IMG/VR virus record: IMGVR_UViG_641736225_000038 | Strand: one strand, 5' to 3' | DNA: 19,876 nucleotides | DNA from: a virus | Lineage: Duplodnaviria; Heunggongvirae; Uroviricota; Caudoviricetes | Shown: positions 1 to 18,301 of the stretch, piece after piece | How positions within the stretch are numbered: the first letter of the stretch is position 1 | How the letters are laid out: each line of letters opens with the position of its first letter | Notes under the pieces: model-generated | The model's input: only the letters and a program-made list of their open reading frames with translations | What the model was told of the DNA's origin: nothing | Database searches by the model: none | Program-made: the position numbers and the translations under genes

Positions 1-438
1 GGCCTGAACTGCCGGAGGCGTAGGCCATTCAATATCTGGCGCACCGGAAGTATCGACCAGCTCCAGTGCGTCCAGATAATCCAGCCACAAATTATATTGC
101 GTCAGTTCGTCACCTTTCAGACGACCAATAGCCGCTTTACCGGGCCATTGCTTACTGTTCATGTATTCGTTGGCCTGGTTAATTAGTAGCTGTCTTTCTG
201 ATTCAGTAATTTCAATAAGCTCTTCATGCGTGGGTGGAGGAATATCTGCCCACGCAGGCAGCCCATCATCTCCGGCAATACGGATTTTTCCTTGTGGCGG
301 TTCAGCCATAAACTCACTGATAATATTTTGATTTACTTCCTTAGCGTCTGATAAATCCCATCCCTCTGATTTATATTTATCAATCATATCCACAGGGAAA
401 AAAGCATTATGCCTTGCGCTATAAACATATTCGTCCAT
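1..438 (-). CDS. tfa: Phage tail fibre assembly protein (Tfa / Mu U-like); 3' end runs off the window start
   Basis: Minus-strand frame opens with ATG at 438..436 (MDEYVYSARHNAFFPVDMIDKYKSEGWDL...) and is still open at position 1, where it reads ...LVDTSGAPDIEWPTPPAVQA, the conserved C-terminal motif of tail fibre assembly proteins. Lies directly downstream of a tail-fibre C-terminal ORF on the same strand. Not in the ORF track because it is truncated by the window edge. Confidence 0.8.
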   Translation of the reverse strand, partial: MDEYVYSARHNAFFPVDMIDKYKSEGWDLSDAKEVNQNIISEFMAEPPQGKIRIAGDDGLPAWADIPPPTHEELIEITESERQLLINQANEYMNSKQWPGKAAIGRLKGDELTQYNLWLDYLDALELVDTSGAPDIEWPTPPAVQA

Positions 439-458
439 ATAAATCACCCTGAATAAAA

Positions 459-872
459 TTACTCACCAACAGCCCACCAACTGTAATTCATCGATACCGT
501 GTCGCTGGTTGATGACGTTCTGTAAGCAGAATTAAAGCCGGTTAACGTTGGGCCTTCTGCAGTCATCACGAACCCTCGCCCAGCGCCTAAAGGCGCACCG
601 CCATCACCAGAATGAGTAAGCATGGCGCAGTCCGCTTTTTTGGGGAAAGGGATGCTGAATGTAATTCTCATTGTTTGCGTCGATAATGTCGGCGTAACCG
701 CACCACGACCATATTGCAGGATTTTCCCGTTGGGTAATTTCATCCATCCATTACCACTGGCAAAAGAGGCCATGTCCGGTATCTGATTTTCCCCTGTCCC
801 CACATCCCGTTTTGCCGCTTCTCCCAAACCAACGTTTATGAAAATGCAGAAATAACGAGCAAATGGCATCAT
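459..872 (-). CDS. Tail-fibre C-terminal variable cassette (Sv-type segment of an invertible tail-fibre region); lacks its own N-terminal constant part in this orientation
   Basis: 137-aa minus-strand ORF, Gly/Ser/Thr-rich, ending ...SMNYSWWAVGE, immediately upstream of tfa on the same strand (tail fibre then tfa order) and abutting an invertase gene on the opposite strand, as in Mu G, P1 C and e14 P segments. The first codons (872 to about 845) lie outside the putative crossover site and are probably not part of the expressed fibre. Confidence 0.6.
   Translation of the reverse strand: MMPFARYFCIFINVGLGEAAKRDVGTGENQIPDMASFASGNGWMKLPNGKILQYGRGAVTPTLSTQTMRITFSIPFPKKADCAMLTHSGDGGAPLGAGRGFVMTAEGPTLTGFNSAYRTSSTSDTVSMNYSWWAVGE
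819..844. other. Candidate invertase crossover site (gix/hix-like 26-bp site)
   Basis: TTCTCCCAAACC-AA-CGTTTATGAAAA: two imperfect 12-bp half-sites around a central AA, with the AAACC / GTTT core arrangement recalled for Hin/Gin sites (hixL TTCTTGAAAACC AA GGTTTTTGATAA). Located 55 bp upstream of the invertase start, at the edge of the tail-fibre cassette. Confidence 0.4.
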
Positions 873-898
873 TCCTGCTTTTGTCAGGGAGATCTACC

Positions 899-1453
899 AT
901 GCTTATTGGCTATGTACGTGTGTCAACAAATGACCAGAACACAGATCTACAACGTAATGCGCTGAACTGTGCAGGATGCGAGCTGATTTTTGAAGACAAG
1001 ATAAGCGGTACAAAGTCCGAAAGGCCGGGACTGAAAAAACTGCTCAGGACATTATCGGCAGGTGACACTCTGGTTGTCTGGAAACTGGATCGGCTGGGGC
1101 GCAGTATGCGGCATCTGGTCATTCTGGTTGAGGAGTTGCGCGAACGTGGCGTTAATTTTCGCAGCCTGACGGATGCTATTGATACCAGTACCCCAATGGG
1201 GCGCTTTTTCTTTCATGTGATGGGGGCCCTGGCTGAAATGGAACGAGAACTGATTGTTGAACGAACAAAAGCTGGACTGGAAGCTGCTCGCGCACAGGGA
1301 CGAATTGGTGGACGTCGTCCCAAACTTACACCAGAACAATGGGCGCAGGCCGGACGATTAATTGCAGCAGGAATTCCTCGCCAGAAGGTAGCGATCATCT
1401 ATGATGTTGGTGTATCGACACTGTATAAGAAGTTTCCGGCCGGAGATAAATGA
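899..1453 (+). CDS. pin: Serine DNA invertase, Hin/Gin/Cin/Pin family (184 aa)
   Basis: Translation from ATG 899: MLIGYVRVSTNDQNTDLQ...VVWKLDRLGRSMRHL...FRSLTDAIDTSTPMGRFFFHVMGALAEMERELIVERT...GRIGGRRPKL, with catalytic serine context (YVRVST) and C-terminal HTH typical of small serine recombinases. The 12 upstream codons in the ORF track (863-898) are probably untranslated. Adjacent to the tail-fibre/tfa cassettes. Confidence 0.9.
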   Translation: MLIGYVRVSTNDQNTDLQRNALNCAGCELIFEDKISGTKSERPGLKKLLRTLSAGDTLVVWKLDRLGRSMRHLVILVEELRERGVNFRSLTDAIDTSTPMGRFFFHVMGALAEMERELIVERTKAGLEAARAQGRIGGRRPKLTPEQWAQAGRLIAAGIPRQKVAIIYDVGVSTLYKKFPAGDK

Positions 1454-1510
1454 AACCGTAGCACGTCGTATGCAAGATCGTGCTGCGGTTTATGCTTACC
1501 ACTTGAAGAT

Positions 1511-2380
<870 letters not shown>

Positions 2381-2463
2381 CTAACCCTTTGAATTTACAT
2401 AGCGCAAAAAGATACCTTTCCTCATAATGTGAGCTAATTTTATGTTTCGTTTGATGATCGGGT

Positions 2464-2525
2464 CGGTCTCGAAAACCGGAGTAGGGGCAACTCTACCGGG
2501 GGTTCAAATCCCCCTCTCTCCGCCA
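2464..2525 (+). other. 3' fragment (62 nt) of tRNA-Ser(CGA), serU-type; attachment-site core, not a functional tRNA
   Basis: CGGTCTCGAAAACCGGAGTAGGGGCAACTCTACCGGGGGTTCAAATCCCCCTCTCTCCGCCA contains anticodon loop CTCGAAA (anticodon CGA), long variable arm, T-arm and 3' acceptor strand. The 5' acceptor strand and D-arm are replaced by only partly similar sequence (2440-2463), as expected at a phage/host att junction. Confidence 0.75.
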
Positions 2526-3107
2526 CTTTATCAATGACTTATCTCCCGACTTCCCGTCTTGCTTTTCCTAAACAGAACAATCGTAGAATATTCTTGAAGG
2601 GTTAGATCGTCACTGTTTTCTGTTCGATACTGTGACATTCAGCACTTGATTCGCTATGGATCTGACAGGAAGGTTTTGAGCGAAAATCTGCAGTTATTCA
2701 GTCGTTTTCTTATCGGTCACCATTATTCTTTTAGACATTGATCCTACAAAGCTGCCGCAAAGTTGGTGGTGGGAACTGAAGTTGCGTAGAGAAGGGGTCA
2801 ATACCCGGAGGCAAACATGGGCTGGCAAAAGTGTAGCGGTATTAGGCGCAGCTATTTAGCCTAGTTATGTTTTATGAAAACTTGATATCATATAAGTGTC
2901 TTACTTATTGGCTGTAAATAAGTTTTTCCTAAGGAATTGTTTCTTGAGTATCATTTGTAACTGTAACGGAATTTATAATCCTTTGCTTTATTGTTACGGT
3001 ATTTTTTATCACACCCTATTTTTAGTGGTTTTTTATACTGAAGTTTGGCAAAGTGAACTTTATATACATATACTTCATCCTGGTTTCAGTTAAATTGGGG
3101 GGATGAT

Positions 3108-3851
3108 ATGGCAACTACATGTTCAGTTATATTGATTTTGGAGTCCTTTGATGTTTATTTCGGAAAAGAGAGTGTGTTTCTGGAGAGAGGTTCATCTGTA
3201 CTTGTCGACTCTAGCTCTAGAGATTTTTTCCTGACATATCCTGAAAGAGTGATAGTGGCGGATTTTGGCGCTGAGTTTATTAGTCGCTATTTGAAAGCTA
3301 ATAACTTAAGGGATATTTCTGATTGTAGGGAATATCCATCTTATTTAAAAATAAACTTTGCTGACTTCAGTTTAATTAAAGGATTAATTAGTTGGGCTAA
3401 TCACTGTGCTGAATACATAGAAATTTTTGATGAGTCTATTGCTTTTACATGTCTCTCTGCATTTTCTTCTGAAAAACAATTTGGAGTATTTCTGTTTGGA
3501 TGTTTGAAAAGCACAGGGGCTAAAGTTAAAACGATTATTCATACGGATTTATCTGCACCATGGCGTCTTAAGGATATATCATCAAGATTATATCTCAGCG
3601 AAAGTTTACTAAAGAGGAAATTGAAAGAAGAGGGGGTATCATTCAGTAAGATCATACTTGATGAGAGGATGCAAATGGCTGAATATTTACTCAGCACTCG
3701 TTGTTATCCTATTAGTAAAGTAGCTAAGGTCTGTGGTTATGCCAGTGTCTCATACTTTACTTATGTATTTAGACGTTATTTTGGTGTTTCTCCAAGTCAA
3801 TACTCTCAGAGGAGTTCAGAAAGTAAAATTCTTACTCACCAGGGAATCTGA
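3108..3851 (+). CDS. AraC/XylS-family transcriptional regulator (247 aa)
   Basis: C-terminal ~100 aa show the two-HTH AraC signature (...ISSRLYLSESLLKRKLKEEGVSFSKIILDERMQMAEYLL...ISKVAKVCGYASVSYFTYVFRRYFGVSPSQY). AT-rich gene; G-rich stretch before the ATG. Confidence 0.75.
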   Translation: MATTCSVILILESFDVYFGKESVFLERGSSVLVDSSSRDFFLTYPERVIVADFGAEFISRYLKANNLRDISDCREYPSYLKINFADFSLIKGLISWANHCAEYIEIFDESIAFTCLSAFSSEKQFGVFLFGCLKSTGAKVKTIIHTDLSAPWRLKDISSRLYLSESLLKRKLKEEGVSFSKIILDERMQMAEYLLSTRCYPISKVAKVCGYASVSYFTYVFRRYFGVSPSQYSQRSSESKILTHQGI

Positions 3852-3855
3852 TCAT

Positions 3856-4330
3856 TGTTCTTGCCCCCTTATTTCCAGACAGGGGGGGTATCTTAAGTTA
3901 ACGTTACCCGCTGACGTCGATATTCTCGCGGAGAGCGATAACCCAACGCACTGTGCGGATGGTTTTCATTGTAATGTTCGATCGCCACTGCAAGATTATG
4001 CAATGCCGTTCTTACATTCGGTTTCGGCATGAACGCGATGTAGTCTTCCTTCATCGTTTTCACGAACCTTTCTGCAATTCCATTACTCTGAGGACTGCTG
4101 ATTGCCGTTGTGCAGGGCTCCAGATTCAACTCTCTGGCGAACTGCCGTGTTTCATGCGCTCTATACGCTGAACCGTTATCTGTCAGCCACTGGATGGACT
4201 GTTCCGGTACTTTATCGCCAAAGCGTTTTTCTATCGCTCCTAACATGACATCCTGCACTGTCGCTTTATCGTAACCTCCCGTGCTTGCGGCCCAGTCTAT
4301 GGCTTCACGATCGCAACAGTCCAGGGCGAT
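3856..4330 (-). mobile_element. Truncated IS3-family (IS2-group-like) insertion sequence remnant: one terminal inverted repeat plus 3' part of transposase orfB
   Basis: Minus strand near 3856-3880 reads ...TGTCTGGAAATAAGGGGGCAA..., resembling the IS2 right end as recalled. The orfB-like frame is open from 4330 down to the stop at 3893. No orfA and no second IR. The inner boundary is approximate; decayed homology may extend to about 4400. Confidence 0.6.
3893..4330 (-). pseudogene. IS2-like transposase OrfB, C-terminal fragment
   Basis: Translation ...[93 protein letters not shown]...[19 protein letters not shown] matches the C-terminal DDE-domain region of IS2 InsD-type transposases (recalled, roughly 60-70% identical). 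An in-frame TGA at 4331-4333 ends the homologous frame upstream. Confidence 0.65.
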
Positions 4331-4605
4331 TCATCTGGGCCAATCCTTGCTCATAACAGGCATTCACTTCAGTCATGGCAGAAAGGTATGCATGCTGGAG
4401 AAGTCGTGAAAGAAAAGAAGACTGCTGCGCCGTTTGTCGTCACGTTTATCTTCATTGGCTATGCAAGTCGTAATACAAGGTGGGACAAAACTGAGACACA
4501 TAAGGCCTCGCAATGGCTTGCAAGGCTTTACATGTTTTGATGTGGTGGGACGTGTGAGCGCAGTGTTGATGGGGTAATGCTTTGAATTAGAAGCGGATTC
4601 TTATA

Positions 4606-4651
4606 ATTCGTAATGCGAAGGTCGTAGGTTCGACTCCTATTATCGGCACCA
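4606..4651 (+). other. 3' fragment (46 nt) of tRNA-Thr (thrW-type); left attachment core of the P4-like element
   Basis: ATTCGTAATGCGAAGGTCGTAGGTTCGACTCCTATTATCGGCACCA matches the 3' part of tRNA-Thr(CGU) from the anticodon loop to CCA. Upstream sequence does not match the tRNA 5' half. A P4-type integrase gene starts 160 bp downstream in the same orientation. Confidence 0.75.
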
Positions 4652-4813
4652 TCTCAACTTCCTCAAACGTCCGTATTAGTCCATAAAATCTCTGATTTAT
4701 AACATTTTTTATTCTTTTAAGTCCATAGTAGTCCGTAACCATCCAGTAGAATCCGGTACTGAATGTGTATAGGATTGTGTATATGTTCCTGTTCGGTCTG
4801 GATTCCTATACAC

Positions 4814-5995
4814 ATGCCTTTAAACGATATGCAGATTCGCCGCGCTAAGCCTGAAGCTAAAGCCTATACATTTGGAGATGGGCTAGGGTTGTCATTACTT
4901 ATAGAACCTAATGGAAGCAAGAGTTGGCGGTTCCGCTATCGCTATGCCGGCAAACCCAAAATGATCTCGCTTGGTGTTTACCCAACGATCACCCTTGCCG
5001 ATGCTCGTTCCCGTCGTGATGAAGCTCGAAAACTTGTGGCAGAAGGAAAGAACCCTAGTGAGGTTCGAAAAGAGCAAAAGCTAGCTATGCAAACAGAGTC
5101 AGAGAACGCCTTCGAAAAGATAGCCAGAGAGTGGCATCAACTTAAATCTGCTAAATGGTCGGCGGGATATGCATCAGACATCATGGAAGCGTTTAAGAAC
5201 GACATTTTTCCTTATGTCGGAACAAGGCCTGTGGGAGAGATTAAACCGCTAGAGCTGCTGAACGTTCTGCGTAAAATTGAGAAACGTGGTGCGTTGGAGA
5301 AAATGCGCAAAGTGCGGCAGCGTTGCTCCGAAGTGTTTCGCTACGCAATTGCAACGGGTAGGGCGGAGTACAATCCTGCGGCTGATCTCTCCAGCGCTCT
5401 CGAAGTACACCAATCCAATCATTTCCCATTCCTAAAAGCTGATGAGATACCTGATTTTCTACGTGCCTTAGAGGGTTACTCCGGGAGTAAGCTTGTCCAG
5501 ATAGCCACGAAATTACTGATGATTACGGGTGTGAGAACCATCGAATTACGCGCGGCATTATGGCAAGAATTTGATCTGGATAACGCTATTTGGGAAATTC
5601 CTGCTGAAAGGATGAAAATGCGTAGGCCACATCTTGTGCCCTTATCATCTCAAGCGGTAGATTTACTCAATGAACTCAAGATCATGACAGGGAACTATCG
5701 TTATGTTTTTCCAGGGCGGAACGATCCGAATAGGCCAATGAGCGAAGCGAGTATAAATCAAGCCATTAAGCGTATTGGGTATGGAGGAAAAGTCACTGGA
5801 CATGGTTTTCGTCATACCCTTTCTACAATCCTGCATGAGCAAGGTTTTGAGAGTGCTTGGATTGAAATCCAGTTGGCTCATGTAGATAAAAATTCTATTA
5901 GGGGGACTTATAACCATGCTCAATATTTTAGTGGAAGGAAGTCTATGATGGACTGGTACAGTAATTTGATATTTGAAAGACTAAAAAGGAGTTAA
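4814..5995 (+). CDS. int: P4-type tyrosine integrase (393 aa)
   Basis: Start at ATG 4814: MPLNDMQIRRAKPEAKAYTFGDGLGLSLLIEPNGSKSWRFRYRYAGKPKMISLGVYP... (characteristic P4-integrase N-terminal domain); C-terminal catalytic region with ...HGFRHT... and ...HVDKNSIRGTYNHAQY (tyrosine recombinase R-H-R-Y context). The track's upstream extension (4763) is unlikely. Confidence 0.9.
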   Translation: MPLNDMQIRRAKPEAKAYTFGDGLGLSLLIEPNGSKSWRFRYRYAGKPKMISLGVYPTITLADARSRRDEARKLVAEGKNPSEVRKEQKLAMQTESENAFEKIAREWHQLKSAKWSAGYASDIMEAFKNDIFPYVGTRPVGEIKPLELLNVLRKIEKRGALEKMRKVRQRCSEVFRYAIATGRAEYNPAADLSSALEVHQSNHFPFLKADEIPDFLRALEGYSGSKLVQIATKLLMITGVRTIELRAALWQEFDLDNAIWEIPAERMKMRRPHLVPLSSQAVDLLNELKIMTGNYRYVFPGRNDPNRPMSEASINQAIKRIGYGGKVTGHGFRHTLSTILHEQGFESAWIEIQLAHVDKNSIRGTYNHAQYFSGRKSMMDWYSNLIFERLKRS

Positions 5996-5998
5996 TTT

Positions 5999-6415
5999 GT
6001 GTCTCAACCACTTTCGGAAATATTGACATGGGATGATGAACAATGGGAGGTATTTGTCCATGATTGGCTTATTGTCTGTAAATCAGATGATTACCCGTGG
6101 AGCGAACGTTTGGGAGGAGCTGGAGATAAAGGTAGAGACGTTGTTGGATATAAATCGGATCCTAACGTAGAAGGTTATTCTTGGGATAATTATCAATGCA
6201 AACTGTACAAAAAAAGTTTAGGGTTCTCTGATGTTGTAGTTGAGTTTGGAAAACTTATCTATTTTACTCTGAATGGTGATTATCCCATCCCTCAGAAGTA
6301 CTTTTTTGTGGCACCCTATGATTTATCTACTACATTTTCTAATTTATTGAAAAATAAAAACGAGCTTAAAAAAGCAGTCCTTGATTCATGGGATTCAGCA
6401 ATTTCAAAAAAATAA
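5999..6415 (+). CDS. Mrr-like (PD-(D/E)xK, Mrr_cat-type) restriction-endonuclease-domain protein, 138 aa; probably the N-terminal part of a frameshifted effector gene
   Basis: GTG start at 5999 with AAGGAG 10 nt upstream, 3 nt after the int stop. Motif ...LGGAGDKGRDVVGYKSD...(25 aa)...YQCKLYKK fits the G-x-D-x-G-x-D ... Q-x-K active-site pattern of Mrr-type nucleases. AT-rich. Ends in an A7 tract where the next ORF begins in another frame. Confidence 0.55.
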   Translation: MSQPLSEILTWDDEQWEVFVHDWLIVCKSDDYPWSERLGGAGDKGRDVVGYKSDPNVEGYSWDNYQCKLYKKSLGFSDVVVEFGKLIYFTLNGDYPIPQKYFFVAPYDLSTTFSNLLKNKNELKKAVLDSWDSAISKK

Positions 6416-7005
6416 CTAAAAAGATTGATATTCCATTAGATGATGAAATAAAAAAATATATTGAGGATTTTGATTTTAGTATTTTTTACTCTCTACCCTT
6501 ATCATTGATTTTAAATGATATTGCAAATACACACCTTTATTTTAAGTACTTTAACGAGCTGTATGTCGTGAGAATCCCTCCAAATGAAATTCCAACATAC
6601 AATTCAAAAAAAGAGTCTGTATATGTTAATGCACTGCTTCAAGCCTATTCAGAGCATGGAAATAAAACTTATAGTTCTTTCTTAGAGCTTGATGATCCAT
6701 ACAGACGACACTTTAATAATAGTAGAAATGATTTTTATTTTGCATCTTCGCTTGAGGTTTTTGTCCGCGAAGTATTTAAAGATGATGTATTCAAAGCATT
6801 GAAATGTTACATTTCATCTTCAATTGAACCCGTCTTTTATGAAGACCATAATTATGCATTTATTAGGTGTAATGCAGTCTTGAAGCAGGCTGTTCTGACA
6901 CCAATTGCACATTCAGTACTATCAAAAATATGTGAAGCAAATGATAAAAAAGGAATATGCCATCATTTGGTTAATGATGGTGAAGTAATTTGGACGGTGA
7001 GATAA
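6388..7005 (+). CDS. Hypothetical protein (205 aa); probably the C-terminal continuation of the upstream nuclease ORF
   Basis: ATG 6388 is immediately preceded by an in-frame TGA (6382-6384), has no SD and overlaps the upstream ORF by 28 nt. One extra A in the A7 run (6401-6407) would fuse the two ORFs into about 343 aa. Stop TAA 7003-7005 overlaps the next ATG (TAATG). Confidence 0.5.
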   Translation: MGFSNFKKITKKIDIPLDDEIKKYIEDFDFSIFYSLPLSLILNDIANTHLYFKYFNELYVVRIPPNEIPTYNSKKESVYVNALLQAYSEHGNKTYSSFLELDDPYRRHFNNSRNDFYFASSLEVFVREVFKDDVFKALKCYISSSIEPVFYEDHNYAFIRCNAVLKQAVLTPIAHSVLSKICEANDKKGICHHLVNDGEVIWTVR

Positions 7006-7463
7006 TGGTTAGAATTTATAATTCAAGTTTAGAAGTGGCATGTCGAATGGCGAAAGTGCTCGTCGCTATTTATCCTTCTTCATTAAGCCTTGAACGGCTT
7101 ATTTGTTTTGATTTTATTTTAGTAAATCTTAAGGATTTTTTACCTGAAGAGATTAGTCTTCATCCTCCAATACCCCGTAGAGATGCTCAGTTAGCCCTAA
7201 AACGAGAGATTGTTTTAGAATCATTGGCTTTGTTGCAAGGCTATGAACTAGCCTCAAAAATTTATACACATCGTGGTTTTGTATATAAAGCTTCTGAAAA
7301 AACATATGCATTTACAAATTCTCTACATAATGAATATGTTGCGCAGATGGAGCATAATATAAATTTGGTGGTTAAGTTATATAGTGATATTCCTGATGAG
7401 CAGTTGCAATCAATTATAAAAAATAAAATTGGCAAATATGATATGGAATTTAATTATGAATGA
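7005..7463 (+). CDS. Small hypothetical protein (152 aa), candidate middle component of the cargo module
   Basis: ATG at 7005 overlaps the upstream stop (TAATG coupling); the track's TTG at 6990 is an alternative. AT-rich with no recognisable motif. Its stop overlaps the start region of the ATPase gene. Confidence 0.5.
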   Translation: MVRIYNSSLEVACRMAKVLVAIYPSSLSLERLICFDFILVNLKDFLPEEISLHPPIPRRDAQLALKREIVLESLALLQGYELASKIYTHRGFVYKASEKTYAFTNSLHNEYVAQMEHNINLVVKLYSDIPDEQLQSIIKNKIGKYDMEFNYE

Positions 7464-7895
7464 CAATTTTTTTACGTTCAGAAAAATAAAGGTAACCGGA
7501 TTCAATAAATTAGATGCTATAATTGAATTTGGTTCTAAATTGACTATTTTATATGGTGGTTCTGACTCTGGAAAAACATACATATATTATTTGATTCGAT
7601 ATTTATTAGGGAGTGAAAAACTAAAAAATAAAGATATCGATCATGCTCAAGGTTATGATTTAGCCTATCTGGAATTTAATTTTCAAGGTAGGGTAATGAC
7701 AATTGAGAGGTCTCTTCAGGATAGCGCCCATTACAGATTATATGATTCGAGCATTGAAAATGTTAGTGAAGCTAATCTGTTGATGGTTTTTTCCAAAAGT
7801 GCTTCGTCTAAAAAGAGTTTTTCATCATACTTTTATGGTAGGTTGAATTTCAAAGAGGCTAAAGTAAGAACAAACTTAAGTAATACTCTTCATAA
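7456..7895 (+). pseudogene. 5' fragment of an SMC/RecF-like ABC ATPase gene, truncated by IS629 insertion
   Basis: MNDNFFTFRKIKVTGFNKLDAIIEFGSKLTILYGGSDSGKTYIYYL...: N-terminal head-domain pattern with Walker A GGSDSGKT. The reading frame runs straight into the IS terminal repeat at 7896; the ORF-track tail ...NEPPRVSWRVFYL is IS-encoded. Start could also be ATG 7438. Confidence 0.7.
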
Positions 7896-7937
7896 TGAAC
7901 CGCCCCGGGTTTCCTGGAGAGTGTTTTATCTGTGAAC

Positions 7938-8828
7938 TCAGGCTGCCAGATCATCGTTTCCGATGGAAGCATAATAAGCTTTTTCTGCTTCTGCCGGAGG
8001 AGTATGGCCCAGCCTTCCCAGCAATCGTCGATTGTTATACCAGTCCACCCACGTTAGTGTGGCCAGTTCCACTTCTGCACGGTTTTTCCAGCTCTTACGG
8101 TGTATTACCTCCGCTTTGTAAAGACCATTGATGCTCTCAGCCATCGCGTTGTCATACGAGTCGCCTGTACTCCCTGTTGATGCCAGTAATCCGGCTTCTT
8201 TTAGTCGCTCCGTATAGGCCAGTGACACATACTGAGAGCCTTTATCGCTGTGATGGATGGTGCCAGACGGACGACGGGCCCACAACGCCTGCTCCAGCGC
8301 ATCCAGCACGAATGTCGTTTCCATAGACGATGAGACCCGCCACCCCACGATGTATCCGGCAAACACATCAATGATAAACGCCACATAGACGAAGCCCTGC
8401 CATGTGCTGACGTAAGTAAAATCAGCCACCCACAGCTGGTCAGGTCGTTCTGCCACGAACTGACGGTTTACGCGGTCGCCTGCGGCAACGGCTTTCCGGC
8501 TGATGGTCGTACGGACCTTTTTACCCCGGAGAACACCGGCAAGTCCCATAACCGCCATGAGACGTGCCACTGTACATCTGGCCACCCTGATTCCTTCCCG
8601 TAACAACTGACGCCAGACTTTACGCACACCGTACACCTGATGATTTTCATCGTATACGCGCTGTATCTCTCTCTTCAGCCAGTCGTCGTGCTGCGCACGG
8701 GCACTGCGTTTATCCGGATGATGTCGCTGTTGCTGACAATGGTAATACGTTGACGGGGCAATATGCAGTTCGCTGCATACCGGTCCGACCCCGTACTGCT
8801 CACGCAGCTTATCCAGCAGTGGCATCAT
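7938..8828 (-). CDS. IS3-family transposase OrfB (DDE domain), IS629-type
   Basis: 296-aa ORF ...[50 protein letters not shown]...[11 protein letters not shown]...[21 protein letters not shown]...: integrase-core catalytic triad context. Overlaps orfA by 4 nt, as for frameshift-fused IS3 transposases. Confidence 0.9.
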
Positions 8829-17344: not shown

Positions 17345-18301
17345 TTATTTTTGAATTGATTTAAACATCCCATCGAGTTGTAATTTATTTATGTCGGTTT
17401 TCTTTATGGCTTTAATTAAGTTTTCAATAACTTCCAAAGAAAAAATTACATCTTTCTTTTCAATTCTAACCCCCCCGTGGTGGCTGCAAGCATTAAGGAT
17501 GTCCTTTGTAATTTCAACATCATTTTTCATTAATGGTTCATAGTCCAGAGCCTCAATAACAGAAACTAAACTACCTAGCATTTGCTCTTGGTATTGAACG
17601 TTGTTTAAATGCATTATACGAATATTAACAAGCATGAGAATATATTCTAAATATCTCCTGGCAGTATTTCCTTTCTCTTGTAAAGAATCACGATCATATT
17701 CCTCAATACTCATGACTTCATTATGTAAAGAGGCTATTTTGTGCTCTGCTAATGAAATATTTATCGCATCCATGAGGTTTCGTGAGAAGCCTGTAGATGT
17801 AACATGACCATTTGCGGGCCTTGTTAAAATACATGTAGTATAGCAATTTATATTTGGGGTCTGGATTGTCTCATTTACTCTTTTAACCGTTCTATAAACG
17901 TCTACCATATAAGAACCTGAGTTTTCAAATGAACATGAAGAGCATTTTGTATTATATATTCTATTTAGAGATAACTGATTGTGATAGTATCCCTTTAAGA
18001 AAGCATATATAGTGTCATTAAACTCGACAAACACAACGGACTCAATATATATATGGAATTTATCATTGGGGTGCCACTCTAATTCAAGTCTTCTTGTAGA
18101 GTCATCAAAGGAAAAGTTTGAAATAAAATCCCAGTTACCTAAATCTATAAAATCAACGATATTTCTACCTGCACCATGGATATTTTTATTTATTAAAGTT
18201 GTGATTGAGTTTTTTATAATGTCCCAATCATGAATTTCATGATCGAATTTATTATTGATGGTTTCTTTTATTTGATTGGAAAAGTTTGAATAACTAGTCA
18301 C
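17345..18301 (-). CDS. Hypothetical protein (318 aa), AT-rich orphan cargo gene at the right end of the P4-like element
   Basis: GTG start at 18301 with GAGG 8-9 nt upstream. Long, clean ORF in strongly AT-rich DNA with its own AT-rich upstream region. Asn/Ile/Lys-rich composition typical of horizontally acquired genes. No motif I can assign. Confidence 0.6.
   Translation of the reverse strand: MTSYSNFSNQIKETINNKFDHEIHDWDIIKNSITTLINKNIHGAGRNIVDFIDLGNWDFISNFSFDDSTRRLELEWHPNDKFHIYIESVVFVEFNDTIYAFLKGYYHNQLSLNRIYNTKCSSCSFENSGSYMVDVYRTVKRVNETIQTPNINCYTTCILTRPANGHVTSTGFSRNLMDAINISLAEHKIASLHNEVMSIEEYDRDSLQEKGNTARRYLEYILMLVNIRIMHLNNVQYQEQMLGSLVSVIEALDYEPLMKNDVEITKDILNACSHHGGVRIEKKDVIFSLEVIENLIKAIKKTDINKLQLDGMFKSIQK

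What the first reader, a model, noticed from the sequence alone, without database searches (positions are those of the whole stretch)
6380..6420. Effector gene is split at an A7 homopolymer: likely frameshift (or slippage-prone tract) joining the Mrr-like ORF to the downstream ORF
ORF 5999-6415 ends within CAAAAAAAT (6401-6407). The next ORF's ATG (6388) is one codon after an in-frame stop, lacks an RBS and overlaps by 28 nt. One extra A in the tract gives a continuous ~343-aa protein (...DSWDSAISKK-ITKKIDIPLDDE...). This is either a pseudogenising indel, a sequencing error in a homopolymer, or a slippage-dependent switch.
Basis: seen in the sequence. Interest (0 to 1): 0.45.

Follow-up and report, generated by a model that had tools for sequence, protein, structure and literature searches.

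The report
Frameshifted Lamassu nuclease gene, decaying locus
The split gene is real: it is the nuclease gene (lmuA) of a Lamassu anti-phage system in an E. coli O157:H7 satellite prophage, broken by loss of one A from an A8 run, and the partner ATPase gene is also wrecked, so this is an ordinary decaying pseudogene and not a regulatory switch.

Summary
The A7 run is at 6406-6412, not 6401-6407. ORF1 (5999-6415) stops at TAA 6413-6415. ORF2 (6388-7005) overlaps it by 28 nt in the -1 frame. One extra A gives a 335-aa protein, not ~343.

The repaired protein aligns without a gap across the junction (ISKK|ITKK) to more than 100 single-ORF homologues of 324-381 aa. PADLOC matches it end to end as LmuA (E 8e-89). 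It carries an N-terminal PD-(D/E)xK-type nuclease domain and the ABC-3C CTD6 domain. It lies in the defence hotspot of a P4-like satellite prophage of E. coli O157:H7.

It is not a sequencing error. About 300 complete O157:H7/O55:H7 genomes match at 99.9-100%, all four loci read directly show A7, and none matches an A8 query without a gap. The same result argues against a phase switch. A programmed frameshift is unsupported: there is no downstream RNA structure, and no diverged orthologue keeps two ORFs.

The partner ATPase gene lmuB is independently destroyed by a shared frameshift, an O157-specific nonsense codon, an IS1203/IS629 insertion, and further strain-specific A-run indels.

Verdict: a fixed 1-nt homopolymer deletion in a defence system undergoing neutral decay. 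Low interest.

The parts
4763..5995 (+). P4-type tyrosine integrase of the satellite prophage. RefSeq calls it from 4814. It lies directly upstream of the defence hotspot.
   Evidence: annotated as tyrosine-type recombinase/integrase, WP_001130487.1
5999..6415 (+). lmuA 5' part (ORF1, 138 aa). It holds the complete N-terminal PD-(D/E)xK (Mrr-like) nuclease domain and ends prematurely at TAA 6413-6415. It has a good RBS (AGGAG) and a GTG start.
   Evidence: Invariant G42, D43, G45, D47 ... Q66, K68 are all inside this part.
6406..6412 (+). The A7 homopolymer, which is the frameshift site. The inferred ancestral state is A8 (TCA AAA AAA ATA ACT = S K K I T).
   Evidence: The orthologue in L007 reads AGC AAA AAA ATT ACA (S K K I T) in frame. 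The junction ISKKIT recurs in several orthologues.
6412..7005 (+). lmuA 3' part, in the -1 frame: a linker plus the ABC-3C/Lamassu CTD6 domain. PGAP calls it as ORF2 from ATG 6388, which has no RBS.
   Evidence: PF20282 CTD6, E 2e-29, residues 206-332 of the repaired protein; the LmuA profile is matched end to end.
7005..7463 (+). lmuC (ABC-3C middle component 2), 152 aa, apparently intact.
   Evidence: PF20288 MC2, E 5e-30. LmuC, E 3e-36. Same length as the Xenorhabdus orthologue.
7456..7895 (+). lmuB (SMC/ABC-like ATPase) 5' fragment with the Walker A motif GGSDSGKT, cut off by the IS.
   Evidence: 65% identity to residues 8-144 of the Xenorhabdus LmuB.
7896..9205 (-). IS1203/IS629 (IS3 family, 1310 bp) inserted in lmuB, with a 3-bp target duplication. 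The insertion is strain-specific.
   Evidence: TW14359-type strains carry the same IS in the integrase gene instead.
9206..10588 (+). Remainder of lmuB, in two frames. It carries a nonsense codon TAA at 9399-9401 (TTA in O55:H7) and a frameshift within 9957-9975, probably one A lost from the run at 9968-9971.
   Evidence: Three repairs restore a 606-aa ORF, against 604-609 aa in the orthologues.
10998..12576 (-). P4 core genes that bound the hotspot on the other side: ogr/delta-like, psu (polarity suppression) and a sid-like gene.
   Evidence: RefSeq annotation of the identical locus.

Best explanation
The two ORFs are the halves of one gene, lmuA. This gene encodes the effector nuclease of a short (type II) Lamassu / ABC-3C anti-phage system, lmuA-lmuC-lmuB, carried in the defence hotspot of a P4-like satellite prophage of E. 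coli O157:H7. An ancestral A8 run encoding Ser-Lys-Lys-Ile lost one A, most likely by replication slippage. Translation therefore stops after residue 138, at the end of the nuclease domain, and the C-terminal CTD6 domain is left in the -1 frame behind an ATG with no ribosome-binding site.

In solved Lamassu complexes, the LmuA C-terminal domain mediates tetramerisation into the active nuclease, and LmuA is held in the LmuBC complex until it is released. Cutting that domain off should therefore inactivate the effector; this step is inferred.

The mutation was fixed before O55:H7 and O157:H7 diverged. It is one of several independent lesions in a system decaying neutrally. At most a fraction of a percent of full-length LmuA could arise by unprogrammed -1 slippage on A_AAA_AAA, and without LmuB it would have no system to work in.
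For: Shown:
1. The repaired 335-aa protein matches 157 proteins. Nearly all are single ORFs of 324-381 aa that cover 91-100% of it. The best are Xenorhabdus (68%) and Serratia, Yersinia and Aeromonas (56-60%).
2. The alignment has no gap across the junction, and the junction residues ISKKIT recur in orthologues.
3. Orthologous loci read effector 334-335 aa, MC2 152-159 aa, ATPase 604-609 aa. In Serratia the locus sits next to a P4-type integrase and an ogr/delta gene, as it does here.
4. PADLOC gives LmuA at E 8e-89 over profile positions 10-333 of 336, plus LmuC and LmuB. Pfam gives CTD6 and MC2.
5. The AlphaFold model of the 68%-identical orthologue has pLDDT 95. Its best PDB matches are solved LmuA chains (9nxx, 9hqx, 9ny1, 9uxl), followed by the Cap4, MspJI and FokI nucleases.
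6. 310 records from 309 complete E. coli genomes match ORF1+ORF2 at 99% identity or more. The best match to an A8 query is 99.7%, which is one gap, so no revertant exists. O55:H7 RM12579 also has A7.
7. lmuB is dead. It has a frameshift at 9957-9975 shared with O55:H7, a TTA>TAA change at 9399-9401 in O157 only, and IS629 at 7896-9205 in this strain. O55 has A5 for A6 at 9931-9936, and TW14359 has A7 for A8 at 9760-9767.
8. The 88 nt downstream of the tract fold no better than shuffles (-5.9 kcal/mol, z = +1.37).

From the literature:
- LmuA tetramerises through its C-terminal domain, using residues that are occluded while it sits in the LmuABC complex (PMC12663957).
- A_AAA_AAA is listed among heptamers giving more than 0.10% frameshifting without stimulators. 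Unstimulated motifs were at most about 10 times a 0.055% background (PMC4066793).
Against: The tract sits in exactly the register of a -1 slippery heptamer (A_AAA_AAA) and is followed at once by a stop codon. A GGGA lies 12 nt upstream, so some full-length protein is probably made, and no expression data were available.

The closest intact orthologue is only 68% identical. The ancestral A8 is therefore inferred from the reading frame and the conserved K-K-I residues, not observed.

lmuC, the nuclease domain and the CTD6 reading frame are all still free of further lesions. That could reflect recent inactivation, as assumed here, or some residual use.
Confidence: 0.9

Rival explanations
1. Programmed recoding. 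The A_AAA_AAA heptamer, or RNA-polymerase slippage on the A7 run, is used to make a set ratio of a short nuclease-only protein and full-length LmuA, in the way dnaX and IS3-family transposases work.
For: The heptamer is in the correct 0-frame register, with a stop codon directly 3'. GGGA lies 12 nt upstream; from my own knowledge of dnaX, that spacing could stimulate slippage. A_AAA_AAA is a proven frameshift motif in some IS elements (PMC4066793).
Against: The register follows automatically from deleting one A out of TCA-AAA-AAA-ATA. The GGGA comes from the W-D codons, where W131 is invariant. There is no downstream structure (z +1.37). None of more than 100 diverged homologues has the split, and the orthologues that encode KKI there read straight through in frame. 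Unstimulated efficiency is only a few tenths of a percent at most. The partner ATPase needed for any Lamassu function is destroyed.
Confidence: 0.04
2. Phase-variable contingency switch. The homopolymer toggles between A7 (off) and A8 (on) in the population, turning a costly abortive-infection nuclease on and off.
For: Homopolymer indels clearly do occur in this 31% G+C locus: three other A-run indels are seen in lmuB among strains.
Against: None of about 300 complete genomes from the lineage matches an A8 query without a gap. From my own knowledge, tracts of 7-8 nt in mismatch-repair-proficient E. coli mutate far too slowly to act as a switch. Switching the effector on would achieve nothing with lmuB broken in every strain examined.
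Confidence: 0.02
3. Sequencing or assembly error in a homopolymer. The real gene would then be intact.
For: Homopolymers are error-prone on some platforms. A few assemblies do show isolated indels elsewhere in the gene: NE 1092-2 lacks one base at window ~6042, and 'plasmid' pAR-0428-2 lacks two bases in ORF2.
Against: The tract is A7 in all four E. coli loci read directly, from two O157:H7 clinical strains, one cattle strain and O55:H7 RM12579. About 300 complete genomes from many laboratories match at 99.9-100% with the same two-ORF annotation, and none matches the A8 query gap-free.
Confidence: 0.005
4. A functional split. The 138-aa nuclease domain and the 205-aa CTD6 protein are made separately and still work, either as a two-piece LmuA or as a stand-alone nuclease with a new role.
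For: Both halves remain open and unchanged across the lineage. PGAP annotates both as ordinary CDSs. The break falls at the end of helix 120-138, just before a loop between the two domains in the model.
Against: ORF2 has no RBS, and its ATG lies 25 nt upstream of the ORF1 stop. No other lineage has this split. The lineage is too clonal (99.9-100% identity) for the open frames to indicate selection. LmuB, which controls LmuA in solved systems, is dead.
Confidence: 0.03

Closest known systems
Short (type II) Lamassu / ABC-three-component system with an Mrr-type LmuA effector (DefenseFinder 'Lamassu-Mrr'; Pfam CTD6 + MC2 families)
   Same: Gene order lmuA-lmuC-lmuB. LmuA has an N-terminal PD-(D/E)xK nuclease plus CTD6. 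LmuC is the MC2 family. LmuB is about 606 aa once repaired. There are full-length matches to the PADLOC LmuA/LmuB/LmuC profiles, and solved LmuA structures are the best fold matches.
   Different: This copy is non-functional. lmuA is frameshifted between its two domains, and lmuB carries a frameshift, a nonsense codon and an IS insertion. Sequence identity to the solved LmuA proteins (Cap4-type) is only 8-11%, and there is no sequence-level PDB match.
Intact orthologous systems in Xenorhabdus bovienii (prophage) and Serratia marcescens (P4-like satellite)
   Same: 68% and 57% identical LmuA, with the same three-gene layout. The Serratia copy sits in the same place, between a P4-type integrase and ogr/delta.
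   Different: Those have one 334-335-aa lmuA ORF and one 604-609-aa lmuB ORF. The E. coli O157:H7/O55:H7 copy has both genes broken.
-1 programmed ribosomal frameshift sites of dnaX and IS3/IS1-family transposases
   Same: An A_AAA_AAN heptamer in the 0 frame, with the downstream ORF in the -1 frame. IS1203, inside this same locus, is itself annotated with a genuine programmed frameshift and pseudoknot.
   Different: There is no stimulatory hairpin or pseudoknot and no conservation of the overlap in relatives. The ancestral arrangement is a single ORF.

Membership tests
Lamassu LmuA / ABC-3C effector | C-terminal Lamassu/ABC-3C coupling domain (here CTD6, PF20282) | tested here: met
   E 2.1e-29, 103 bits against a cut-off of 26.4, covering profile positions 1-130 of 130. 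It lies in the -1 frame part (ORF2).
Lamassu LmuA / ABC-3C effector | N-terminal effector domain (nuclease of the PD-(D/E)xK / Mrr type) | tested here: inconclusive
   D43, D47, Q66 and K68 are invariant in 118 sequences. Pfam Mrr_cat matches 3 of 19 homologues (best E 6e-6) but not this protein at E<=0.1. Fold matches to LmuA, Cap4, MspJI and FokI have E 6e-5 to 0.2 with low TM-scores. The nuclease fold is well supported; specific Mrr membership is not shown for this sequence.
Lamassu LmuA / ABC-3C effector | Effector domain and C-terminal domain on one polypeptide | tested here: not met
   The window has a stop at 6413-6415 after residue 138. The feature is met in all diverged homologues. 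The window copy is therefore a pseudogene of the family.
Lamassu system (operon level) | Adjacent lmuC (middle component) and SMC/ABC-like lmuB in the order A-C-B | tested here: met
   MC2/LmuC at 7005-7463, and LmuB-homologous DNA from 7456 to 10588.
Lamassu system (operon level) | Intact LmuB ATPase | tested here: not met
   an IS insertion, a nonsense codon and a frameshift. Three repairs are needed to restore a 606-aa ORF.
Lamassu system (operon level) | Protection against phage or plasmid | not testable with these tools
   Needs an experiment. Predicted to be absent.
Programmed -1 ribosomal frameshift site | Slippery heptamer X_XXY_YYZ in the 0-frame register | tested here: met
   tcA AAA AAA TAA. 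This register is also the automatic result of the deletion.
Programmed -1 ribosomal frameshift site | Downstream stimulatory hairpin or pseudoknot | tested here: not met
   MFE -5.9 kcal/mol against a shuffle mean of -9.5, z +1.37; 188 of 200 shuffles fold at least as well.
Programmed -1 ribosomal frameshift site | Two-frame arrangement conserved in diverged relatives | tested here: not met
   relatives are single ORFs. Only the clonal O55:H7/O157:H7 group has the split.
Phase-variable (contingency) homopolymer | Tract-length polymorphism among closely related isolates | tested here: not met
   matches in about 300 complete genomes are 99.9-100% identical to the A7 sequence, the best match to an A8 query carries one gap, and all four loci read directly have A7.
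P4-like satellite defence hotspot | Cargo between the integrase and the psu/delta core genes of a P4-like element | tested here: met
   integrase, then the Lamassu remnant, then ogr/delta, psu, a sid-like gene, an icd-like gene and the primase-helicase.

The most novel reading that the evidence does not exclude
The A7 tract allows a low, constitutive level of -1 slippage (ribosomal or transcriptional). The lineage would then make mostly a free 138-aa nuclease domain plus traces of full-length LmuA, and one of these products would have been kept for a role independent of LmuB, for example low-level interference with incoming DNA. This would be a 'leaky pseudogene' kept as a tuned, detoxified effector.
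Probability: 0.04. Interest if true: 0.5.

Novelty: already known. Interest (0 to 1): 0.12.

Why it matters
Mostly this is a matter of correct annotation. RefSeq lists the two halves as ordinary proteins, 'hypothetical protein' and 'ABC-three component system protein', in hundreds of O157:H7 genomes, and lists the lmuB pieces as 'ATP-binding protein' and 'hypothetical protein'. All of them should be marked as pseudogene fragments of one dead Lamassu system, and defence-system censuses should not count it as active.

There is one modest biological point. A 2026 survey reports that recognisable defence pseudogenes are rare in P4 hotspots (<1% of P4 pseudogenes) and argues that systems are swapped before they decay (PMC13586616). 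This locus is a clear counter-example. A whole system has decayed in place through at least two shared lesions and several later lineage- or strain-specific ones. The likely reason is that the satellite itself is trapped in a clonal lineage.

Why the O55:H7/O157:H7 ancestor lost Lamassu is open. One untested idea is a conflict with its many prophages or with plasmid pO157.

Tried and rejected
- I looked for a closer intact relative that would show the ancestral A8 directly, and found none. The 5.8-billion-protein search has nothing between 68% and 100% identity. The GTDB representative genomes gave only one 32%-identical Clostridia locus. The phage collection had no match. The plasmid collection had only a 64.5%-identical Yersinia frederiksenii plasmid and an O157 'plasmid' contig carrying the same ORF1 protein.
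- NCBIfam had no model for LmuA or LmuC.
- A PDB sequence-profile search found nothing; only the fold search linked the protein to solved LmuA structures.
- I considered dN/dS on the two halves and rejected it, because the lineage differs by only 8 substitutions in 3.4 kb.
- I considered the upstream GGGA as a frameshift stimulator and set it aside, because it is forced by the W-D codons, where W131 is invariant.
- No tRNA gene lies in the window, so the attachment site was not defined.

Full report
**1. The observation**

The sequence reads ...GAT TCA TGG GAT TCA GCA ATT TCA AAA AAA TAA CTA AAA AG....
- The A run is seven bases, at 6406-6412.
- ORF1 (GTG 5999 to TAA 6413-6415, 138 aa) and ORF2 (ATG 6388 to 7005, 205 aa) are both in the mechanical ORF list. 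They overlap by 28 nt, with ORF2 in the -1 frame.
- ORF1 has AGGAG 7 nt upstream of its start. ORF2 has no purine-rich stretch upstream, and its ATG follows an in-frame TGA by one codon.
The product is 335 aa, not ~343.

**2. Where the window comes from**

The window is E. coli O157:H7 chromosome: 100% identity to many complete genomes. The region is a P4-like satellite prophage. In order it holds a tyrosine integrase (4763-5995), the locus in question, and then ogr/delta, psu, a sid-like gene, an HTH regulator, an icd-like gene and the primase-helicase. The segment between the integrase and psu/delta is the known defence hotspot of P4-like satellites (PMC13586616). G+C falls to 30-33% across it.

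**3. What the gene is**

- The repaired 335-aa protein has the ABC-3C CTD6 domain at residues 206-332 (Pfam, E 2e-29).
- It matches a PADLOC LmuA profile end to end (E 8e-89).
- The next ORF (7005-7463) is ABC-3C middle component 2, that is LmuC.
- The DNA after it is homologous to LmuB ATPases.
- In 118 aligned sequences the N-terminal half carries invariant G42, D43, G45, D47 ... Q66, K68, a PD-(D/E)xK-type signature. Three of 19 homologues match Pfam Mrr_cat, but this protein itself does not.
- An AlphaFold model of the 68%-identical Xenorhabdus orthologue is confident (pLDDT 95). Its best PDB fold matches are the solved Lamassu LmuA chains 9nxx, 9hqx, 9ny1 and 9uxl, followed by the Cap4, MspJI and FokI nucleases.
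- The locus is therefore a short (type II) Lamassu system with a restriction-endonuclease-fold effector.

**4. Single ORF or two?**

- The protein search returned 157 hits. Apart from the E. coli fragment itself (P0003) and one truncated metagenomic sequence (P0016), the listed hits are single proteins of about 324-381 aa that cover 91-100% of the repaired query. One shorter 298-aa hit (P0104) covers 79%.
- The alignment has no gap at the junction, and several orthologues read I-S-K-K-I-T there.
- In the orthologue in L007 these residues are encoded AGC AAA AAA ATT ACA, in frame.
- Orthologous loci in Xenorhabdus and Serratia are effector 334-335 aa, MC2 152-159 aa, ATPase 604-609 aa. The Serratia one is in the same P4-like position.
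- The ancestral gene was therefore one ORF. The simplest history is TCA AAA AAA ATA (A8) losing one A.

**5. Not a sequencing error, not a switch**

- ORF1+ORF2 match 310 records from 309 complete E. coli genomes, all at 99% identity or more. All listed strains with a stated serotype are O157:H7 or O55:H7.
- A query carrying A8 finds the same genomes at 99.7% at best, which is one gap. No A8 allele exists among them.
- Direct reading of four loci, including O55:H7 RM12579, shows A7.
- The lesion therefore predates the O55:H7/O157:H7 split and has not varied since.

**6. The rest of the system is dead too**

Comparison with the Xenorhabdus and Serratia LmuB proteins shows the window's lmuB in three pieces.

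| Piece | Window coordinates | Frame |
|---|---|---|
| Residues 8-144 | 7483-7893 | 1 |
| IS1203/IS629 (3-bp target duplication) | 7896-9205 | - |
| Residues 137-414 | 9183-10016 | 3 |
| Residues 401-604 | 9974-10585 | 2 |

The lesions in lmuB are:
- an in-frame TAA at 9399-9401, within the frame-3 piece. O55:H7 has TTA there, so the nonsense change is O157-specific;
- a frame change within 9957-9975, which is identical in O55:H7 and therefore shared;
- in O55:H7, its own A6>A5 deletion at 9931-9936;
- in TW14359-type O157 strains, A7 for A8 at 9760-9767, with the IS in the integrase gene instead of lmuB.

Removing the IS and its duplication, adding one A at 9968-9971 and reverting the stop restores a 606-aa ORF. 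This is stepwise neutral decay, dominated by A-run indels in 31% G+C DNA. That DNA holds 21 A/T runs of six or more bases in 3.3 kb.

**7. Programmed frameshifting?**

- The tract happens to be a perfect A_AAA_AAA heptamer in the 0 frame, followed by a stop. That register is the automatic result of the deletion.
- The 88 nt downstream fold worse than shuffled controls (z +1.37).
- The only upstream G-rich element is GGGA, which comes from the W-D codons (W131 is invariant).
- No relative keeps the overlap.
- In E. coli, heptamers without stimulators give at most about 10 times a 0.055% background. A_AAA_AAA is listed among those above 0.10% (PMC4066793).
- A trace of full-length LmuA is therefore likely, but it would be incidental.

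**8. Mechanistic consequence (inferred)**

In solved Lamassu complexes, LmuA tetramerises into the active nuclease through its C-terminal domain, using residues that are occluded while it sits in the LmuABC complex (PMC12663957). The stop after residue 138 falls at the end of helix 120-138, before a loop that precedes the C-terminal part in the model. The product is therefore a nuclease domain with no coupling or oligomerisation domain. With LmuB also broken, the system cannot sense or respond.

**9. Novelty and score**

This is a known defence family in a very well studied genome, inactivated by the commonest kind of mutation. RefSeq does not flag the lmuA halves as pseudogene fragments, which is worth correcting. 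The locus is also a clear example of in-place decay of a P4-hotspot defence system, which a recent survey reports as rare. Interest is low.

Noticed in passing
window 7896-9205: IS1203/IS629 (1310 bp, 3-bp target duplication) is inserted in lmuB in this strain. TW14359-type O157:H7 strains carry the same IS in the P4 integrase gene instead, so the IS position in this island differs between O157 sublineages.
   Followed up: partly
window 9760-9767, 9931-9936, 9968-9971: Three further A-run length differences or losses lie inside lmuB: A8 versus A7 in TW14359, A6 versus A5 in O55:H7, and the shared frameshift, probably A5>A4. Homopolymer indels dominate the decay of this 31% G+C locus.
   Followed up: yes
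window 9399-9401: A TTA>TAA nonsense change in lmuB is present in O157:H7 but not in O55:H7 RM12579, so it arose after the two lineages split.
   Followed up: yes
L007 6001-7005 (Logan SRR25209460 contig): A Serratia-like orthologous lmuA carries an in-frame stop (…SVYVG*LLEVY…) while its lmuC and its 609-aa lmuB are intact. This is either an independent inactivation of the effector or a read error.
   Followed up: no
window 5999-7005 and 7456-10588 (RefSeq annotation of identical loci, L001/L002): PGAP annotates the lmuA halves and the lmuB fragments as ordinary CDSs ('hypothetical protein', 'ABC-three component system protein', 'ATP-binding protein', 'AAA family ATPase'), not as pseudogenes.
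   Followed up: partly
window 17345-18301 (-): An AT-rich (31-36% G+C) 318-aa hypothetical ORF lies just beyond the P4 primase-helicase gene and before a LysR regulator. It may be further satellite cargo. I did not examine it.
   Followed up: no
window 1-4700: Upstream of the P4 integrase lies a remnant of another element: tail-fibre and tail-fibre-assembly genes, a pinE invertase, a GIY-YIG protein, an AraC regulator and a truncated IS integrase-core pseudogene.
   Followed up: no
NZ_CP044147.1 33270-34274 (L012): A 46.9-kb linear 'plasmid' record of O157 strain AR-0428 duplicates this chromosomal island, with two missing bases in ORF2. It looks like an assembly artefact, not a real plasmid copy.
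   Followed up: no
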